Assembly (NCBI GenBank): GCA_965601925.1
Contig: OZ271854.1
Coordinates: 1,312,001 to 1,376,000, forward strand
Direction: 5' to 3'
DNA: 64,000 nucleotides
Origin: Alkalispirochaeta sp.
Lineage (GTDB): Bacteria > Spirochaetota > Spirochaetia > DSM-27196 > Alkalispirochaetaceae
The position numbers are program-made. Shown here piece after piece: positions 12,001-39,000 of the stretch; position 1 is the first letter of the stretch, and each line of letters starts with the position of its first letter.

Positions 12001-15000
12001 TATTAGATTACTGAAGTAATAGCAATATATTATCATATATCACTACTACTTCTTGCAATGTCCGCAACATCGTCGCCGAACTGCTCGGCGTGCTTGATTT
12101 CCGTCGTTGTCCGCGTCGTCGTCCCACATCCGCATCCGGTGAAACGGTACGTCCATCATCGCAAGGCCCCGTCCCAGCCGCGCTTCGTGTGTTCTCGGGC
12201 GCGTCTCCCCCAAGTTTCAGCCAGGGGACCGGCCGACGGTGTCGATCACTCAGCAGGAGGAACTTGGAGTCGCGCTCGCCACCGCCGTCCGTTCCCCTGC
12301 GGGTTCCAGCAGAGATGTTTCGTCCTCAGGTGATGTGTGGGGGAGACCGGGCTACGGGTTCCAATTCCTCAGCCCGGCTCGGTGTGGTGATAGGTGCTTT
12401 TACAGAAGTCGGACAGCTACATTTACACCGCGACGACCGCTGTTCGGCTCACTTCGGCCGCATACCCGAGCAGCACGCATTGCGTGCGACCAGGGGCCGA
12501 TCGCCAGCGGTCGTCGTCCGGGCCTGTGGGATTTCCTCCCTCCGCCCTCGCGCTCGTTCTGTGGTGCAACAACCGTATGAGTGGTGCATCGCAGGTGGCT
12601 TACGGGAAGTCTCGCATACTTTCAGACCACTGATCGGGGTGTAACACGGGTCGCAATATCAAATCCCCTTCAAAATCATTCGTCGGATTCTCGATTGGCG
12701 AAATCATACGAAGCCAGAACTCATCGTCTCCATTGCGTTGATCGCGGATCACTTCTATGGTGAGCGCATCGGGTCCAAATGTTCCGTCGGTTTCCATTGT
12801 GTTTTCATCAACCCAACGAACCAAGTGAGTGCCTTGAGGCCAGAACGGCATATACCCATCGCTGATGCGTAAAACATAGTCCCATTCGCCCTCAAGATAA
12901 CGATACTCCGTCTGAAGCTCTTGATCTTGAGTATACCAGAAGCCCGAGAAATCAGGTTCATCCAAATCTTGAGAGTTTTCCGCTCGTCTCTGCGAACCAG
13001 AGAAATATCCTGCATTGAGATTATAGAATATGACACTTTGCCCATTATTGCGAAACTCATATCTGCTCGGATTGTCAAATTGTGCAAGTGATAATCGTAT
13101 GTTCTCATTCGTGTTATCATAATATGTCGTATATCGATCTAAGGCGAACCATCGTCCCTTAACCAATAGTGTTGCCTGATCACGTTCCGGTAGTGCTCGG
13201 AACGTAATCGGATGATCAGGTAACGGCACCAAATCGATATTCTGTACTCCCCACCCGTGCTCAAGGAGATACTCCGTCCGGTCTTGCGCCGGTACACAGG
13301 CAATGCATACAAACACCATGATACCCATCAACATCTTCTGCATCTGATCTATCTCCCTCAATATCCCGGAACCGTCGGGACCCCATTCGGAACGCTCCAA
13401 TCAATTGAATACTCCAACGGATCCCATGGCATCGCCGGTTGGGGTGTACTCGGCGACACAATAAAGAAATCAAATCGGTGGATCTCGTCCAACCGCACCT
13501 CCGTCCGGTCCGATCCATGTGACGACGGACTTTGATACGGATTCATCAGCTCAATGATCAACTCCCCGTCCTCATCCAGACGGAATCCACTCATCATCGT
13601 CGAATGGTGACTCTCGCCCGATTGGGTACTGTTTAGTCGCACGTGCGCCACAAACGCATTCGTGGAGCGATCCATCCCGTTCAGCAAATCGATCGTTACC
13701 TCCGCACCCTCAAACACTTCCTGAAAGTTGAACCGATCCCCCGTCAGCAGCTCCATCGACTCCTCGACCGTGAGGAGCGTATCGTCGCTGAACGCACCCT
13801 CCTCGCGCAGTCGATTGTTCGCTTTGACCTGCCCCCTGAAACTAGACCACTGCTTGAGTGAGTCCGTCCTCAAAGCTTCGCCAGATTTCTTCCGGCGTGT
13901 GATTGCCAAGCGAGCTGTGTGGCCGGTACCGATTGTACTCATCGCGCCACAAAGCCAGTTTCTCCTGAGCGTCCCTCACGCCCAGGAACAGGTTCTCGTT
14001 GAGGAACTCGTCGCGTAGCTTTCCGTTGAAGCTCTCGACAAAGGAGTTCTCGATCGGCTTGCCCGGCGTGATCAGACACTGCTGAATGCCGCGCTGGATC
14101 GTCCACGCGATCATGGCCCGGGACGTGAACTCCGGCCCGTTATCACTCTTCAAACATTCCGGCTCACCGTGCATGATCATCGATTGCTCCAACGCCCGGA
14201 TGACATCAGCGCTCGAACATGAACGAGCAATTCGTGCTGTGATCAGATACCGTGTGTACTCGTCCAACACGACCAGACACTTCAACGACCGTCCGGATTC
14301 AGTCGTGTCGAAAACGAAATCCAATCCCCAGATCTGATTGGGCCGCATCGCTGCACTGGCCCTATTGCGCTGCACGATGAGCTTCTTCCGGCGTCGTGAG
14401 CGGAGCATCAACTGTTCCTCGCGATAGATCCGGTACACTTGCTTGTGATTCGCTTCACTATGGTCTCGCCGCAGTAACACGTGGATCCGACGATACCCGA
14501 ACCGCTTGTGCCTCTCGGCCAGTTCCTTGATGCGCGCCCGAATCCGAAGATCGTTCGGGTTCTTTGCCTCATACCGACATGTCGATCGATGCAGCGACGC
14601 CAGTTCGCACGCTCGTCGCTCACTGACCCCATGGTGTTTCAACGCCCCGACAGCCGATCGTCGCTGATGAGGCGTCGTCAGTTTTTTGACAGCACCTCCT
14701 TCATCGCGTCGATCTCAAGCGCCTGGTTGGCGACCAGCCTTTTCAGTCTGGTGTTCTCGTCTTCCAGTTCTTTCAGTCGTCGCGCCTCGCTGGTTGTCAT
14801 TCCGCCATAGCGAGATTTCCACCGGTAAAACGTATTCTCCGCAAACCCGTACTTCCGACAGATCTCCTTCGCCGGAACACCGGACTCGGCTTCCCCCAAG
14901 ATCGCAATGATCTTCTCAACCGAATACTGACCCTTCTTCATGTTGTCTCTCCCTCCTATTATACCGGGAAAAACTCACCTTCTTGCTGGACCAGTTTTGT

Positions 15001-36000: not shown

Positions 36001-39000
36001 CGCGCGCCGCAGCCCCGCCGCGTCGAACCGCGCCACCGACCGCTCCCATTCCGCCTCGACCACCCGGCCCAGACTCGCCGCCCACCGGTCGCCCAAGGCC
36101 GCCGTCTCCCACTCGTCCAGTCCCCCCAGGCCGATCCCCGTCACCGCCTCCCATTCCGCGATGCTCCCGCTGCGACTCGCCCGCTCGTACACACCCTCGC
36201 CGACGACGTGATCGCCCGTCTCAACGTCGTCCGGCATCTGCCCGACGACCGTTCCCGTGCATGCCGCGATCAGTACTGCGATTCCTATTCGTCTCATCTT
36301 CGTCCTCTCTCTATCGCTCGTCGTCGTCTCGGCCGACCCGCCGCCTCGCATGCGCCCGTTGTGCACCGCGATCGAACGCACCCTCCGCCCACGCCGCACC
36401 GGCGTCGCGCGAAGCATGCGTCCGTCGAAATCCTGGGATCACTCGAGATGGCCGTATCTCCCTCATGAACACACAACACGATACGGTCTCTCGGACCGCG
36501 GCGCTTCATATACGGAGATATCGCTGTGTTTGACTTGCTTTCACTATATCATAGTGCGCATGTGAATAAAAGGAATATCAACACAATACGTAATGATTCT
36601 TCAATGTTTATCAAATAATATTAATTATATTGGAATAAAGGTATTCTTTTGATCGAACCAAAGGCGGAATACACAGCGTCTTGAGATGGCAAACGGATTG
36701 AGACTCCATGTATTCACATTATGGGATATCATGCTATAAATATCACTGAAGTGACATTGATGCGAGAATACGGATGTCACTTTTTGGTTTATCCAATACT
36801 GGTGACCGCGGACGTGAAACACAATCGATACAAGATATACACCGTCGTGACGGCATTCCTTTTTCTCTTGGTAGCGTGTAACCGAGCATCGGATCGCCCC
36901 GAGGCGGTATTGACGACGTATTTGCAGGCCCGATCCGCCTACGTAGCGGGCAACCTCGACGAGGCGACGCGGCGCGTAACGTCGATACTGTCACAGAGTC
37001 CCGATCACGTGCCGTCTCTCGTACTTGCCGGGAGAATCGCTTTTTTTGCGGACGACGTGACCTCCGCCCGGGATTATCTCCAACAGGCTCTGGCCGCGGA
37101 TCCGTACCACGTCGACGCGGCGTGGTGGCTTTCGGAGATATATCTCTCCGAGGGGCGGTTCGAGGAGGCGCGCCCGGTGGTCGAGAATGCATTACTCTCC
37201 GCCTCGGAGGATCCCCGCCTCTTGATTCAACTCGCGCGAATCGACGAGGAGTCCGGCGAGCTGTCGCGAGCGATCGAGTTGTACGAGCGTGCACTATTAT
37301 TTTCCGACCAGCTGGGGTACGGAGCGTTACGTCTCGGTGATCTATACCGACGAGAGGGGTTCGGCGAACGCGCTGCACACTCGTACGAGCACGCAGCACG
37401 CTTACTGTCGGAGAATAGTTCGCTCGCGGCGCTGGCTCGCTCTCGCATACGGGCCACTGCGGGAGGTGATCAATAATGCATACGAAGGCACGGTGCATAC
37501 TCGGCCTCGTAACGGTCTTGGTGTTAAGCGGTTGCCGCATACTACAACCGAACATCGTCGAGGCGGGATTTCGCGATCCGGTCATTGTCGAGCAATTGGA
37601 CGCAATCCGCGTCGAGCCTCGGCGCATCGATATTCACGGGTTCGTCGGCGACGAGACCATGCGGGACCATAGTCAGGTAATTATCGATCAACTCGTGCGC
37701 AACGCGAATGTGGAGGCACCGGAGAGCCCGGTCGCCATCGTCGACGCGGTGTTGCGCCAGGATCGTTACGTACGAGAATATCGCGAACGGTTTGCAGTGA
37801 CCGTGGAGTTATCGGTCTACTTAGACGAAGACTCGGCGACACCCGCTGCGACGATGATTCGCACCATCGATACCGATACGCCGGCACGATCCTATCGCTT
37901 TTTGTATCGGCAGTACGAGCATGCGTTTGGCGCACTGTTTGGCCGGCGAGTACGGTAAGTTAGCCGTCGTCGGCCTCTTTGTCGTGTGCGGCGTGGTTTC
38001 TCATTCCGTCGACGCACAATCGCAGCCGCTGCAAATTCTCACGGTAGACGATGCAATCGATCGCGCGCTCGCCGAGAGTAGCGATCTCCAACTCGCGCGT
38101 CTGACTACATCGCTCAGCGCCGATGCGGTTAGACGCGACGTACTGTCGATTCTTCCCACGATCGAGGTCTCGTATCTCGATTCACGATCGGTGACGGAGG
38201 CGGGGCCGGACACATATCAACGAACGCTTTCGGTCGGTGTCGATCAGATCATCTACGACAATCGTACCTACATCAACCAACGACGATTTTCGCGCGCCGA
38301 CCTTAGTCTGGCGACGCGTGCGTTGACCAACGACGAAAACGCACTCGCCATTCAAGTATTGGAACAGGTGATCGCCTCGGTGCGGCTTCGCCGGGAAATC
38401 GCGATCGAACGCGTCATCCTGGAGAACCTGTACGACCAACTACGAATCGCAACCGAGGAACGTCGTCTGGGAATCATCACCGAGCTGGACAGACTGGATG
38501 TGGCGATCCGCGTCGCCGAGTTCGAACAGAGCCTGACACTTCGCGAGCTTGAGCGCGACGAGACCCGCTTCGCCCTCAATCAACTCCTGGGGTATCCCCC
38601 GCGAACCGAGGTCGCGTTTACCGAAGATATCGACGAAGGATTCTCCGGCTTCCTCGACAATCTCGATCCTCAGTGGTATCTGGAACAGGCGACGGTAAAC
38701 AATCTCGATCTGGCGAGGAGCCGTTTGGCGTTGGAGCAGCAAGGCGCCGAGATAAGTGCGCTGCGTCGCCGCTGGATCCCGCTTATCTCGGCGGGTGCCG
38801 ACGTGAGTTTCAGCGGGGATGAGCTGCCGCTCACCGATCCCGGATACTCGGTCGACGTTACGTTGCGCTGGGACCTTCCGCTGGCGCCGAGCGACATCGA
38901 TCTCTCGGCCGGACGGCAGGCGCCCCGAACCCGAAATGCGAGTGCCGGCGTCACAACTACCGTGAACGGCACCGGCGACGACCTCGCGAGCGCCCGCGCG

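What a model noticed while it worked through the whole genome (the two positions that open the first line are those of the whole stretch)
12600..36297. Giant helical lipoprotein polymorphic toxins with orphan toxin-immunity cassettes
Three paralogous ~3,100-aa proteins (g01231 here; g03759 at 4152466-4161678; g03894 at 4315336-4324689) without any Pfam domain share a conserved 2,750-aa alpha-helical body, a Gly/Ala-rich hydrophobic segment and an HExxH..E minigluzincin-like module, then diverge completely in the last ~300 aa; downstream lie truncated 'orphan' copies that keep only the pre-toxin junction plus new C-termini, each followed by a small low-GC gene. I read this as a previously undescribed delivery scaffold for polymorphic antibacterial toxins of spirochaetes, with a built-in releasing metallopeptidase, peptidoglycan-cleaving M23 and other unknown toxin tips, and cognate immunity genes. 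New would be a trafficki [...]
Evidence so far: All-vs-all BLASTP: g01231 vs g03759 78% id over aa 1-2794, vs g03894 61% over 1-2770, no similarity after; orphans g01228 (1046 aa), g01226 (809), g01224 (546), g01220, g03757 (825), g03754 (632) match only aa ~2130-2770 of the giants and then differ. Pfam at E<0.1 on 20 proteins of the loci: Peptidase_M23 at the C-tips of g03759 (E 3.7e-7), g01226 (3.8e-4), g01228 (0.085); otherwise only chance-level hits (E 0.006-0.09) and NADase_transloc on g03753. N-terminus MRRIGIAVLIAAC = lipobox. phmmer vs 1.84e9 representatives with aa 1900-2800: 476 hits E<1e-3, many 2,000-4,000 aa and many short 600-1000-aa forms. 20 of 401 Spirochaetota genomes have a match. 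Alignment of 30: E474 invariant, H473 a [...]
(Added by a program. Inside this text positions count along the whole contig: contig position 1,312,001 is position 1 of the stretch shown here. "Call 12" and the like, gene names such as g00115 and contig names such as C1 are that model's own, and its searches are not shown. The text may have been shortened before it was handed on; [...] marks where a part breaks off. The agent that wrote the report below was given it as the finding of a first reader that could run no searches.)

Follow-up and report, generated by a model that had tools for sequence, protein, structure and literature searches.

The report
Giant spirochaete toxins tied to pump
A spirochaete genome carries three 3,100-residue secreted proteins with swappable cell-wall-cutting tips, each tip paired with a protective gene, and these genes usually sit beside a conserved envelope-spanning pump that may export them.

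Summary
The minus-strand gene 26965-36297 (3,110 aa) has two paralogues elsewhere in the genome (78% and 61% identity up to aa ~2,790). It is followed by four 5'-truncated "orphan" copies, 97-99% identical in DNA to its 3' part, each with a different C-terminus and a small downstream gene.

No Pfam or NCBIfam model covers the scaffold. About 419 representative relatives exist, nearly all labelled spirochaetal.

The polymorphic toxin/immunity reading is supported:
- 19 tip clusters among 95 tails; the classes compared by profile, apart from M23, are unrelated.
- Similar tips go with similar downstream proteins (14 of 16 similar downstream pairs).
- 26 of 27 downstream proteins have a signal-type N-terminus.

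- The giant's own tip is a divergent M23 domain (hhalign 95%), like three other tips in this genome, so divergence is not complete.
- The lipobox is not a family trait (6 of 47).
- The HExxH module has a generic zincin-like fold; a releasing role is only inferred.

New here: full-length giants abut a seven-gene cluster (TPR, TolC-like OEP, MFP, two Big_5, two RND). This holds in 9 of 12 genomes and 15 of 33 further loci. Twelve of 13 giant-bearing genomes have the cluster, against 110 of 388 others. Export through it is inferred, not shown.

The parts
26965..36297 (-). Giant protein gene (3,110 aa): Sec/lipobox N-terminus, helical body, core, HExxH module, M23-like tip
   Evidence: no Pfam/NCBIfam family
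35098..36000 (-). Conserved N-terminal Trp-rich helical domain (aa ~100-400)
   Evidence: Covered in 46 of 67 other giants. Invariant W286, A289, E290, R297, W300, W315, W329 in 16 sequences.
28498..29430 (-). Conserved core (aa 2290-2600): LWDDDADNDG acidic loop, hydrophobic helical hairpin (aa 2340-2373 = 29179-29280), Gly-rich beta segment. Variable region begins at its end (junction J1, aa ~2602).
   Evidence: many relatives' matches end at query 501-510
27961..28443 (-). HExxH..E zincin-like module (aa 2619-2779; HEATH at 28180-28194, E2718). Junction J2 at aa ~2768.
   Evidence: HEHE in 58 of 78; AF2 pLDDT mostly >85 here; fold matches
26968..27960 (-). Tip (aa 2780-3110): divergent M23-type domain with invariant H..ID, LHMNP and HxH
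   Evidence: hhalign 95.2%, E 2.6e-8 to M23-bearing tips; AF2 failed (pLDDT 45.6)
26532..26951 (-). Candidate immunity gene (139 aa from MKKV; signal peptide), 13 nt after the giant's stop
   Evidence: homologue after the same tip class in G210 and L066
22588..25728 (-). Orphan cassette 1 (1,046-aa ORF; core + variant module lacking second His + M23-type tip)
   Evidence: 24580-25631 is 97.7% identical to 28813-29864
21560..22678 (-). Downstream gene of orphan 1 (signal-type N-terminus)
18643..21126 (-). Orphan cassette 2 (827 aa; M23 tip, Pfam E 3.9e-4)
18107..18649 (-). Downstream gene of orphan 2 (180 aa, hydrophobic N-terminus with Cys)
16026..17666 (-). Orphan cassette 3 (546 aa; HExxH module + Cys/His-class tip)
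   Evidence: (17002-17657 is 98.9% identical to 28133-28788)
15259..16068 (-). Downstream gene of orphan 3 (269-aa ORF, signal-type segment)
13842..14941 (-). IS3-family element (orfA 14678-14941, orfB 13842-14642) that cut a fourth cassette
12600..13942 (-). Remnant of cassette 4: tip fragment (97% identical to the orphan 3 tip) plus 266-aa paralogue of the orphan 3 downstream gene (56% id)
12096..12357 (-). Terminal 93-bp junction remnant plus a copy of the structured repeat
21101..21270 (-). Structured ~160-nt dispersed repeat upstream of orphan 2. Further copies at 25638-25807, 17662-17825, 12188-12357; fragment at 15114-15185.
36721..37476 (+). TPR protein, first gene of the linked cluster, divergent from the giant
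37921..40724 (+). OEP (TolC-like, 37921-39357) and HlyD-type membrane-fusion protein (39354-40724)
40730..43650 (+). Two Big_5 Ig-like proteins (40730-42211; 42040-43650)
43670..49428 (+). Two RND (ACR_tran) permease genes (43670-46642; ~46621-49428)

Best explanation
This is a polymorphic antibacterial toxin/immunity locus built on a giant alpha-helical scaffold that is, on present evidence, restricted to Spirochaetota.

Shown by sequence:
- The giant carries a Sec-type signal (a lipobox in this genome).
- It has a conserved N-terminal Trp-rich domain and a poorly conserved Ala-rich helical middle.
- It has a conserved C-terminal core with an acidic DNDG loop and a hydrophobic helical hairpin, then an HExxH zincin-like module.
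- It ends in an exchangeable ~300-aa tip.
- Recognisable tips are peptidoglycan hydrolases: M23 (including this giant's tip) and NlpC/P60. Other tip classes are unrelated to these.
- Each tip is followed by a class-specific exported protein.
- Silent 5'-truncated cassettes downstream are nearly identical to the giant up to the junction.

Inferred:
- The downstream protein is a periplasmic immunity factor.
- The cassettes are swapped into the expressed gene by homologous recombination.
- The tip acts in the periplasm of a neighbouring cell.
- The hydrophobic hairpin region helps it cross the target outer membrane.
- The zincin module helps release the tip.
- Export across the producer's outer membrane uses, or docks on, the adjacent TPR/OEP/MFP/Big_5/RND tripartite system. 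I put this step at about 0.4 on its own.
For: Paralogues and orphans:
- Three paralogues, and orphans with 97-99% DNA identity to the giant's 3' part.

Family and tips:
- 419 representatives at E<=1e-3.
- 95 full tails share the module but fall into 19 tip clusters.
- hhalign joins the giant-type tips to M23-bearing tips: 95.2%, E 2.6e-8, 89 columns across HxxID, LHMNP and HxH.
- The seven other class pairs compared with that method score <=0.3%.
- Pfam above gathering score: M23 on P0120 (44.9 bits) and NlpC/P60 on P0111 (24.3 bits).

Tip/downstream pairing:
- 27 tip/downstream pairs from 7 genomes give 351 pair comparisons: 29 tip-similar, 16 downstream-similar, 14 both. About 1.3 would be expected if independent.
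- 26 of 27 downstream proteins have a hydrophobic N-terminal segment.
- In 53 further loci, 32 of 43 gene ends have a downstream ORF within 250 nt, and 26 of those have such a segment.
- Giant/orphan/small-gene arrays recur in G323, G302, G210 and G317.

Cluster linkage:
- Adjacent to a full-length giant in 9 of 12 genomes with usable flanks and in 15 of 33 further loci.
- The facing RND ORF overlaps the giant's ORF by 4 nt (G296, G185, L090), 19 nt (G265) or 73 nt (G323).
- The MFP orthologue is present in 12 of 13 genomes with a full-length giant, against 110 of 388 others.
- Within family f4, all 4 giant-bearing genomes are among the 10 of 50 that have the cluster.

Module:
- HExxH..E in 58 of 78 sequences.
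- AF2 mean pLDDT 77; zincin-type fold matches.
Against: - There are no expression, toxicity, immunity or localisation data.
- No tip class with a cytoplasmic target (nuclease, deaminase) was recognised in 66 short forms. That is unusual for classical polymorphic toxins.
- 59 of those 66 short forms gave no Pfam family at all, so most tips are of unknown activity.
- The giant's tip could not be modelled (pLDDT 45.6). Its M23 assignment rests on profiles and motifs.
- The pump cluster occurs in about 30% of Spirochaetota genomes, mostly without giants, so it has another primary job.
- 18 of 33 further loci, 3 of 12 genomes, and two of the three paralogues here are not adjacent to the cluster.
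- RND pumps are not known, to my knowledge (recalled), to export large proteins.
- Related genomes are not independent samples.
- About a fifth of the modules lack the second His.
- The lipobox is not conserved across the family.
Confidence: 0.68

Rival explanations
1. The giants are housekeeping envelope proteins, such as periplasmic or surface structural proteins or autolysins that remodel the producer's own wall. On this view the small downstream proteins are dedicated inhibitors, and the truncated copies are decaying duplicates without a role.
For: All recognisable tips act on peptidoglycan. The giants are genetically tied to an envelope-spanning complex that most spirochaetes use for something else. 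The scaffold is Sec-exported and very long, and no delivery machinery of a known kind is present.
Against: - Distribution is patchy: 20 of 401 genomes.
- Several mutually unrelated tip classes sit on one scaffold.
- Tip and downstream protein covary.
- Cassettes keep 97-99% DNA identity exactly up to the junction.
- Tips and small genes have low GC.
- Cassette arrays exist in genomes without any full-length giant (G210, G317).
These are features of conflict systems, not of housekeeping autolysins.
Confidence: 0.12
2. It is a polymorphic toxin system, but the neighbouring pump cluster is irrelevant to it. The adjacency would be inherited synteny or a preferred insertion site. Export would be by Sec plus an unknown or general route, for instance outer-membrane vesicles, lysis, or a general lipoprotein surface pathway.
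For: The cluster is in 122 of 401 genomes, and only 12 of those hold a full-length giant. The MFP scores of giant-linked clusters do not stand apart from the others. More than half of the further loci (18 of 33) and two of the three paralogues here lack adjacency.
Against: - Two different conserved arrangements both put the giant's 5' end against the cluster: divergent from the TPR gene, or directly behind the second RND gene with overlapping ORFs.
- This is seen across six families.
- 12 of 13 giant-bearing genomes have the cluster, while most fragment-only genomes lack it.
- G288 has a second, diverged copy of the cluster at its giant.
Confidence: 0.4
3. It is a mobile-element protein, such as a tape-measure-like or conjugation-associated giant with a wall-degrading end, rather than a toxin.
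For: Its features superficially resemble tape-measure proteins (a resemblance recalled, not tested): a long helical protein with a hydrophobic Gly/Ala segment and a C-terminal M23 domain. An IS3 element and dispersed repeats lie in the locus.
Against: - It has an N-terminal signal peptide.
- No phage or conjugation genes were found in the window's flanks or in six other genomes' loci.
- There are three chromosomal paralogues.
- Exported partner proteins follow each tip.
- It is linked to a chromosomal pump cluster.
Confidence: 0.03

Closest known systems
Polymorphic toxin systems with orphan cassettes (CdiA/CdiI, Rhs, MafB), as catalogued by Zhang et al. 2012 (PMC3482391; passages read)
   Same: A large conserved N-terminal part and variable C-terminal toxin domains. 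The immunity gene lies immediately downstream. Arrays of 5'-truncated toxin/immunity cassettes share the pre-toxin junction. A peptidase lies before the toxin, a position that paper assigns to "releasing peptidases".
   Different: - There is no TPS/FHA, RHS, PAAR, LXG/WXG, MuF or other trafficking domain recognised by Pfam or NCBIfam.
- The scaffold is alpha-helical rather than beta-helix or RHS shell.
- The recognisable tips are only cell-wall hydrolases, and all candidate immunity proteins are exported.
- The word M23 does not occur in the held text of that paper.
- The gene is linked to an RND-type tripartite system, which is not among the eight routes listed in its abstract.
SitA lipoprotein toxins of myxobacteria (PMC5562445, PMC8546572; abstract starts seen in the listing)
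   Same: These are polymorphic toxins that start with a lipoprotein signal and act between related diderm cells.
   Different: SitA delivery relies on outer-membrane exchange. No sequence comparison with SitA was made here. The giants are ten times larger by recollection, and most relatives lack a lipobox.
Periplasm-acting cell-wall effectors with periplasmic immunity proteins (type VI amidase and M23/NlpC-P60 effectors; recalled, not searched with)
   Same: A peptidoglycan hydrolase toxin is paired with an exported neutralising protein.
   Different: No type VI genes were seen in the window. The hydrolase is the end of a 3,100-aa Sec-exported protein.
Tripartite RND efflux pumps such as BesABC of Borrelia (PMC2279261, abstract start seen) and MacAB-TolC (PMC5985334 and PMC2613632, abstract starts seen)
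   Same: The linked cluster has the three Pfam-defined parts: OEP, HlyD-type adaptor and ACR_tran permease. The MacAB-TolC abstracts speak of export of virulence factors and protein toxins by a tripartite machine.
   Different: The cluster has two RND genes, two Big_5 Ig-like proteins and a TPR protein. No RND pump is known to me to move a protein of this size. The link to the giants is genetic only.
Small zincin peptidases: minigluzincins (4jiu, 4qhf), aspzincins (1eb6, 1ge6) and the HExxH domain of ChlB (8s5f)
   Same: HExxH plus a downstream Glu on the next helix, behind a three-stranded sheet.
   Different: The matches are weak and not specific to one family (Foldseek E 0.17-1.6; VIA Z 4.1-8.2). 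No Pfam model matches except M48, near its gathering cutoff (20.3 bits), in 2 of 66 relatives: P0063 at 21.1 bits, just above, and P0088 at 20.2 bits, just below.

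Membership tests
Polymorphic toxin system (sensu Zhang et al. 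2012) | Conserved N-terminal part with diverse, unrelated C-terminal domains | tested here: met
   95 full tails fall into 19 tip clusters. In eight profile comparisons among six tip classes, only giant-type vs M23-bearing scored high (95.2%); the other seven scored <=0.3%. Earlier comparisons on smaller sets also joined the M23-type sub-groups.
Polymorphic toxin system (sensu Zhang et al. 2012) | Cognate gene immediately downstream that varies with the toxin domain | tested here: met
   14 of 16 downstream-similar pairs are also tip-similar, out of 351 pairs. Gaps of -1 to +34 nt are common.
Polymorphic toxin system (sensu Zhang et al. 2012) | Standalone C-terminal cassettes that share the junction with the full-length gene | tested here: met
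   Four cassettes in the window have 97-99% DNA identity to the giant up to aa 2602 or 2768. Arrays also occur in G323, G302, G210 and G317.
Polymorphic toxin system (sensu Zhang et al. 2012) | Toxicity of the tip and its neutralisation by the downstream protein | not testable with these tools
   No experiment was possible.
Known trafficking classes (T5SS/CdiA, T6SS, T7SS, PVC, TcdB/TcaC, PrsW, MuF) | Class-specific N-terminal or linked domain | tested here: not met
   No Pfam or NCBIfam family on the giant or on 14 other giants. The flanking genes are sugar metabolism, ABC import and the RND cluster.
Peptidase M23 (tip of this giant) | Pfam PF01551 match | tested here: not met
   No match at E<0.1 on the giant. 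Relatives do match: P0120 at 44.9 bits, the 827-aa orphan at E 3.9e-4, and P0004 carries a precomputed PF01551.
Peptidase M23 (tip of this giant) | HxxxD and HxH metal/catalytic motifs (motif definition recalled) and profile similarity to M23 domains | tested here: met
   H184, I187, D188, H228, H264 and H266 are invariant in 6 sequences. hhalign gives 95.2%, E 2.6e-8, with these motifs aligned.
Peptidase M23 (tip of this giant) | M23 fold | tested here: inconclusive
   AF2 with 6 sequences gave mean pLDDT 45.6. No fold search was made on it.
Zincin metallopeptidase / minigluzincin (module aa 2619-2779) | HExxH plus a third-ligand Glu | tested here: met
   The H2702-E2703-H2706-E2718 pattern is present in 58 of 78 sequences; 9 of 78 lack the second His.
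Zincin metallopeptidase / minigluzincin (module aa 2619-2779) | Fold specifically like minigluzincins | tested here: inconclusive
   Foldseek's best hits are 4jiu and 4qhi (E 0.17-0.5). VIA ranks 8s5f (Z 8.2) and aspzincins (Z 5.9) above selecase (Z 4.8).
Bacterial lipoprotein | Lipobox Cys after the signal's hydrophobic core | tested here: met
   LIAAC is present in all three paralogues. Among relatives of 1,900 aa or more, only 6 of 47 with a signal-type segment have one, by a simple pattern. It is therefore not a family feature.
Tripartite RND efflux system (linked cluster) | OEP + HlyD-type adaptor + ACR_tran permease encoded together | tested here: met
   Pfam in the window: OEP 2.2e-27, HlyD_D23 4e-26, ACR_tran 5.4e-95 and 1.6e-71. 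The same families are found in G323.

The most novel reading that the evidence does not exclude
The giants define a new contact-dependent antagonism system of spirochaetes with its own trafficking route. On this reading a Sec-exported, 2,000-4,000-aa alpha-helical toxin docks through its conserved Trp-rich N-terminal domain on a TolC-like/MFP/RND/Big_5 machine and is passed through, or mounted on, the outer membrane. That would be a protein-export role not known for RND-type tripartite systems. The C-terminal hydrophobic hairpin and zincin module would then carry and release exchangeable cell-wall hydrolases into a neighbour's periplasm.
Probability: 0.3. Interest if true: 0.88.

Novelty: new variant of a known kind. 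Interest (0 to 1): 0.74.

Why it matters
Interbacterial weapons of spirochaetes are, to my knowledge, almost undescribed. Five full-text searches found no description of this family. In Zhang et al. 2012, spirochaetes appeared only in phyletic lists in the 12 of 35 matching passages that were shown.

This family would give the phylum its own polymorphic toxin scaffold, with hundreds of relatives in metagenomes. It would also supply a set of unnamed cell-wall-directed tips and exported immunity proteins.

The genetic tie to a tripartite RND-type system turns the question [quoted passage not shown] into a testable one. It hints at a protein-handling role for a pump family regarded as a small-molecule exporter.

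Tried and rejected
Searches that found nothing:
- Sequence searches against solved structures found nothing for aa 2430-3110 or for a 32-sequence profile of core and module.
- A profile of the N-terminal domain gave only one borderline hit: 4lws_A, E 0.004, 81 columns. I treat it as a lead, not a finding.
- The ESM Atlas gave no usable hit for aa 1-2013 or aa 21-420.
- The word-indexed protein search found only 5 relatives.
- Rfam found nothing in 11500-37500 at E<=1.
- Earlier findings of this scan held nothing.

Structure and complex prediction:
- AF2 of the giant's tip with a 6-sequence alignment was poor (pLDDT 45.6) after one interrupted run. No fold search was made on it.
- Complex prediction of tip with candidate immunity protein was not available.

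Ideas dropped:
- The first attempt to scan genome contigs with a 32-sequence alignment failed for lack of a conserved stretch. An 11-sequence alignment worked.
- I considered that giant-linked pump clusters might be a distinct subfamily. MFP scores did not separate them from giant-less clusters, so I dropped it. No tree was built.
- I considered a hammerhead-like motif in the upstream repeat by eye. Rfam does not support it.
- The phage tape-measure reading was rejected on context.

Full report
**What is there**

On the minus strand the window holds one very long gene. The ORF runs 26965..36417. The start at 36297, reading MRRIGIAVLIAAC, gives 3,110 aa and has a purine-rich ribosome-binding site just upstream.

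Thirteen bases after its stop begins a 139-aa protein with a signal peptide (26532-26951). Four cassettes follow, all on the same strand:
- a 1,046-aa ORF (22588-25728) plus a 372-aa ORF;
- an 827-aa ORF (18643-21126) plus a 180-aa ORF;
- a 546-aa ORF (16026-17666) plus a 269-aa ORF;
- behind an IS3 element (13842-14941), a 194-aa tip remnant plus a 266-aa ORF.

- tblastn over the 5.05-Mb genome finds two paralogues: 78% identity over aa 1-2794 and 61% over aa 1-2770.
- The orphans match giant aa 2132-2602, 2307-2602 and 2503-2768 and nothing after.
- At DNA level the shared stretches are 97-99% identical to the giant. The full paralogues are far more diverged. This fits recent copying or gene conversion.
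- GC falls from 0.60-0.71 over the body to 0.48-0.52 over tips and small genes.
- Pfam and NCBIfam give nothing for the giant. M23 scores E 3.9e-4 and 0.085 at the ends of two orphans.

**A real, unnamed family**

- phmmer with aa 2100-2800 against 1.84 billion representatives gave 419 hits at E<=1e-3, and 99 at E<=1e-30. They include both 2,000-4,000-aa forms and 300-1,300-aa forms.
- NCBIfam on 14 other giants gave only two chance-level rows.
- In a sample of 401 Spirochaetota genomes, 20 have a match.
- A pattern scan of 185,579 species genomes returned 53 loci. Of these, 52 are titled as spirochaetes and one as a Planctomycetota MAG.
- The body is homologous across genomes. It is best conserved at aa ~100-400 (46 of 67 giants) and from aa ~1,800 onwards (39-67 of 67). 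The Ala-rich middle is barely conserved.

**Anatomy of the C-terminal third**

A 32-sequence alignment shows these elements in order:
- a conserved block, GYGExGRI...LWDDD(ADNDG)...AP;
- a hydrophobic stretch, aa 2340-2373. This is the only membrane-like segment besides the signal;
- DDAxFTxxDV;
- a Gly-rich GLLELxxGxxG...GxGGxD segment;
- a module with HExxH and a later Glu.

AF2 on aa 2290-2800 with 78 sequences gave mean pLDDT 77. The hydrophobic stretch is modelled as a helical hairpin with pLDDT 65-78. The region from model residue 210 to 480 mostly scores 80-98.

Foldseek's best PDB hits for this model are minigluzincins (4jiu, E 0.17, probability 0.91). None reaches E<=0.001. VIA-align places model residues ~330-490 on zincin folds:
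- the HExxH domain of ChlB, Z 8.2;
- deuterolysin and GfMEP, Z 5.9;
- IrrE and BlaR1, Z 4.9;
- selecase, Z 4.8.

The module is therefore a small zincin-like domain. Membership in one zincin family is not settled.

The H-E-H-E pattern is intact in 58 of 78 aligned sequences. Nine, including both M23-tipped orphans of this window, have HExxR-type variants.

**Two nested junctions**

Many relatives stop matching the giant at query position 501-510, that is aa ~2602. The 1,046- and 827-aa orphans do the same. Others, like the 546-aa orphan, continue to aa ~2768.

Single-linkage clustering still joins the first 180 residues after aa 2605 of all 95 full tails into one group. The module is therefore homologous throughout but fast-evolving.

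**The tips**

The last ~280 residues of the 95 tails fall into 19 clusters, of sizes 44, 12, 8, 6, 6, 3, 2, 2, 2 and ten singletons.

Pfam on 66 short forms recognised the following:
- M23 in 4; only P0120, at 44.9 bits, is above the gathering score;
- NlpC/P60 in 1 (P0111, 24.3 bits, above cutoff);
- M48 on the HExxH module in 2;
- nothing in 59.

The giant's own tip has direct relatives in P0016, P0037, P0007, G210, G323, L062, L066 and L077. It has invariant H184-x-x-I187-D188, H228 (LHMNP) and H264-x-H266.

Profile-profile comparison of nine such tips with fifteen M23-type tips gave 95.2% probability, E 2.6e-8, over 89 columns, with those motifs aligned. The same method gave <=0.3% for the seven other class pairs compared. 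These involve the Cys/His class of the 546-aa orphan, the class of the third paralogue, a second Cys/His class, and the NlpC/P60 class.

So four tips in this genome are M23-type: the giant, the second paralogue, and the 1,046- and 827-aa orphans. At least four further classes are unrelated to M23 and, where compared, to one another. The reading of HxxxD and HxH as M23 motifs is from memory.

**The small downstream genes behave like immunity genes**

I paired 27 tip-bearing genes with the next gene. The genes came from this genome's three loci and from G323, G302, G210, G317, G275 and G030.
- Of 351 pair comparisons, 29 were tip-similar and 16 downstream-similar. Fourteen were both. About 1.3 would be expected if the two were unlinked. 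Related genomes are not independent, so this is a strong trend, not a probability.
- 26 of 27 downstream proteins have a hydrophobic N-terminal segment, and many have a lipobox-like Cys.
- In the 53 further loci, 32 of 43 gene ends have an ORF of 90 aa or more within 250 nt. Of those, 26 have such a segment.

Exported partners fit toxins that act on the wall and must pass through the producer's own periplasm.

**Cassette arrays elsewhere**

- G323 has a 3,699-aa giant followed by six shorter homologous or tip-bearing ORFs. Five of these are immediately followed by a signal-type protein.
- G302 has a giant followed by three tip-bearing ORFs.
- G210 and G317 have only 5'-truncated forms with their partner genes.

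**New: linkage to a pump cluster**

Divergent from the giant, the window encodes seven genes on the plus strand:
- a TPR protein (36721-37476);
- a TolC-like OEP (37921-39357);
- a HlyD-type adaptor (39354-40724);
- two Big_5 Ig-like proteins (40730-42211, 42040-43650);
- two ACR_tran RND permeases (43670-46642, ~46621-49428).

The same set, in the same order, lies against the 5' end of a full-length giant in G323, G302, G296, G265, G185, G057 and G030. In G288 it does so without the RND genes. Counting this window, that is 9 of the 12 genomes whose flanks could be read. G275, G145 and G245 have the cluster elsewhere. G089's contig holds about 4.4 kb upstream of the giant and shows no cluster gene.

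In G323, G296, G265, G185 and G302 the giant follows the RND genes directly. In G296 and G185 the ORFs overlap by 4 nt, in G265 by 19 nt and in G323 by 73 nt. In G302 the RND-like ORF nearest the giant lies about 350 nt away and matches RND only as short separate ORFs. In the window, G030 and G057 the giant is divergent from the TPR gene.

In the independent set of 53 loci, 33 hold a giant's start with at least 1.4 kb upstream. Fifteen of these show cluster genes there. Eleven are divergent and four sit behind an RND gene.

Phyletic pattern:
- The adaptor's orthologue (E<=1e-30) is in 122 of 401 genomes.
- It is in 12 of the 13 genomes with an open frame of 1,900 aa or more. The exception, G089, is 85% complete.
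- It is in 110 of the other 388 genomes.
- Of the seven genomes with only short frames, two have it (G195, G398).
- Within family f4, the four giant-bearing genomes are all among the 10 of 50 with the cluster.

The Big_5 protein shows the same breadth, 131 of 401 genomes. This genome has one cluster and three giants.

The cluster clearly has a life of its own. The giants, however, are found with it and next to it far more often than chance or shared descent alone would suggest. I read it as the likely export or docking machine, at roughly 0.4. No contact could be tested.

**Mechanism proposed**

Shown:
- the domain order;
- the exchangeable tips;
- the paired exported proteins;
- the near-identical silent cassettes;
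- the linkage to the pump cluster.

Inferred:
- Sec export, with lipidation in this genome;
- passage or mounting at the outer membrane by the tripartite system;
- a long helical stalk;
- entry of the C-terminal part into a neighbour's periplasm, helped by the hydrophobic hairpin;
- release of the tip by the zincin module;
- wall damage unless the cognate exported protein blocks the tip;
- renewal of the tip by recombination with downstream cassettes.

**Comparison with what is known**

The logic is that of polymorphic toxin systems (Zhang et al. 2012, PMC3482391; passages read). None of their trafficking domains is present, and that text does not mention M23. Lipoprotein SitA toxins share only the signal type; I saw their abstracts's listing.

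Five full-text searches turned up no description of this family or of a toxin-RND link. This does not prove that none exists. Supplements were not opened.

**Verdict**

The scaffold is a new variant of a known kind of system. The pump linkage is the part that could make it more than that.

Noticed in passing
window 21101-21270, 25638-25807, 17662-17825, 12188-12357 (minus strand); also G000 4151420, 4146892, 4142594 and six or more unrelated intergenic sites: A dispersed ~160-nt repeat sits directly upstream of every orphan cassette and also between unrelated genes. Thirteen copies fold into one long hairpin with 34 predicted pairs, 12 of them with compensatory changes. Rfam has no match. The annotated N-termini of the orphans (for example MASATSGPKGLLSDRHRR) are translations of this repeat.
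   Followed up: partly
L013-L015 (G323) and L020-L021 (G317): Orphans in other genomes also begin with genome-specific repeated leaders. MAERNEGAGGPPRFFKTGPPEIV occurs in full in two ORFs and in part inside a third in G323. METGETASMKLSEWEK occurs in full in two ORFs and from its ninth residue on in a third in G317. This suggests that cassette boundaries are generally marked by local repeats.
   Followed up: no
window 13842-14941: An IS3-family element (orfA and orfB) has cut the fourth cassette. It leaves a 72-bp piece of the repeat (15114-15185), a 65-bp piece of the core (15013-15077) and the tip remnant.
   Followed up: partly
G210 (L018-L019), G317 (L020-L021): These genomes hold arrays of truncated toxin/partner cassettes but no full-length giant. 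They have no MFP orthologue, and G210 also has no Big_5 match; G317 has one weak Big_5 match (E 8.8e-9). They may be immunity islands kept for defence.
   Followed up: partly
G288: L039 and contig C26: G288 has two copies of the cluster. The more typical one is on C26. A more diverged one (MFP E 7.6e-39 against 5.3e-56) is at its giant, and no RND gene was seen between its Big_5 gene and the giant.
   Followed up: no
L064: One contig titled as a Planctomycetota MAG carries a 3,079-aa giant with MFP and Big_5 genes divergent from it. This is either a binning error or a transfer out of the phylum.
   Followed up: no
window 35098-36000 (giant aa ~229-309 of the profile): A 16-sequence profile of the Trp-rich N-terminal domain hits PDB chain 4lws_A (named "uncharacterized protein") at E 0.004 over 81 columns. 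By recollection that entry is a WXG100-type helical hairpin. This is only a weak lead.
   Followed up: no
window 16026-16850 (tip of the 546-aa orphan) and relatives P0020, P0039, P0062, P0122, P0124: This tip class has an invariant Gly-Cys early, and an invariant His and an R.D motif late. That would suit a papain-like hydrolase. A second, unrelated class (P0027 group) has GYCLA...ADYG.HF.
   Followed up: partly
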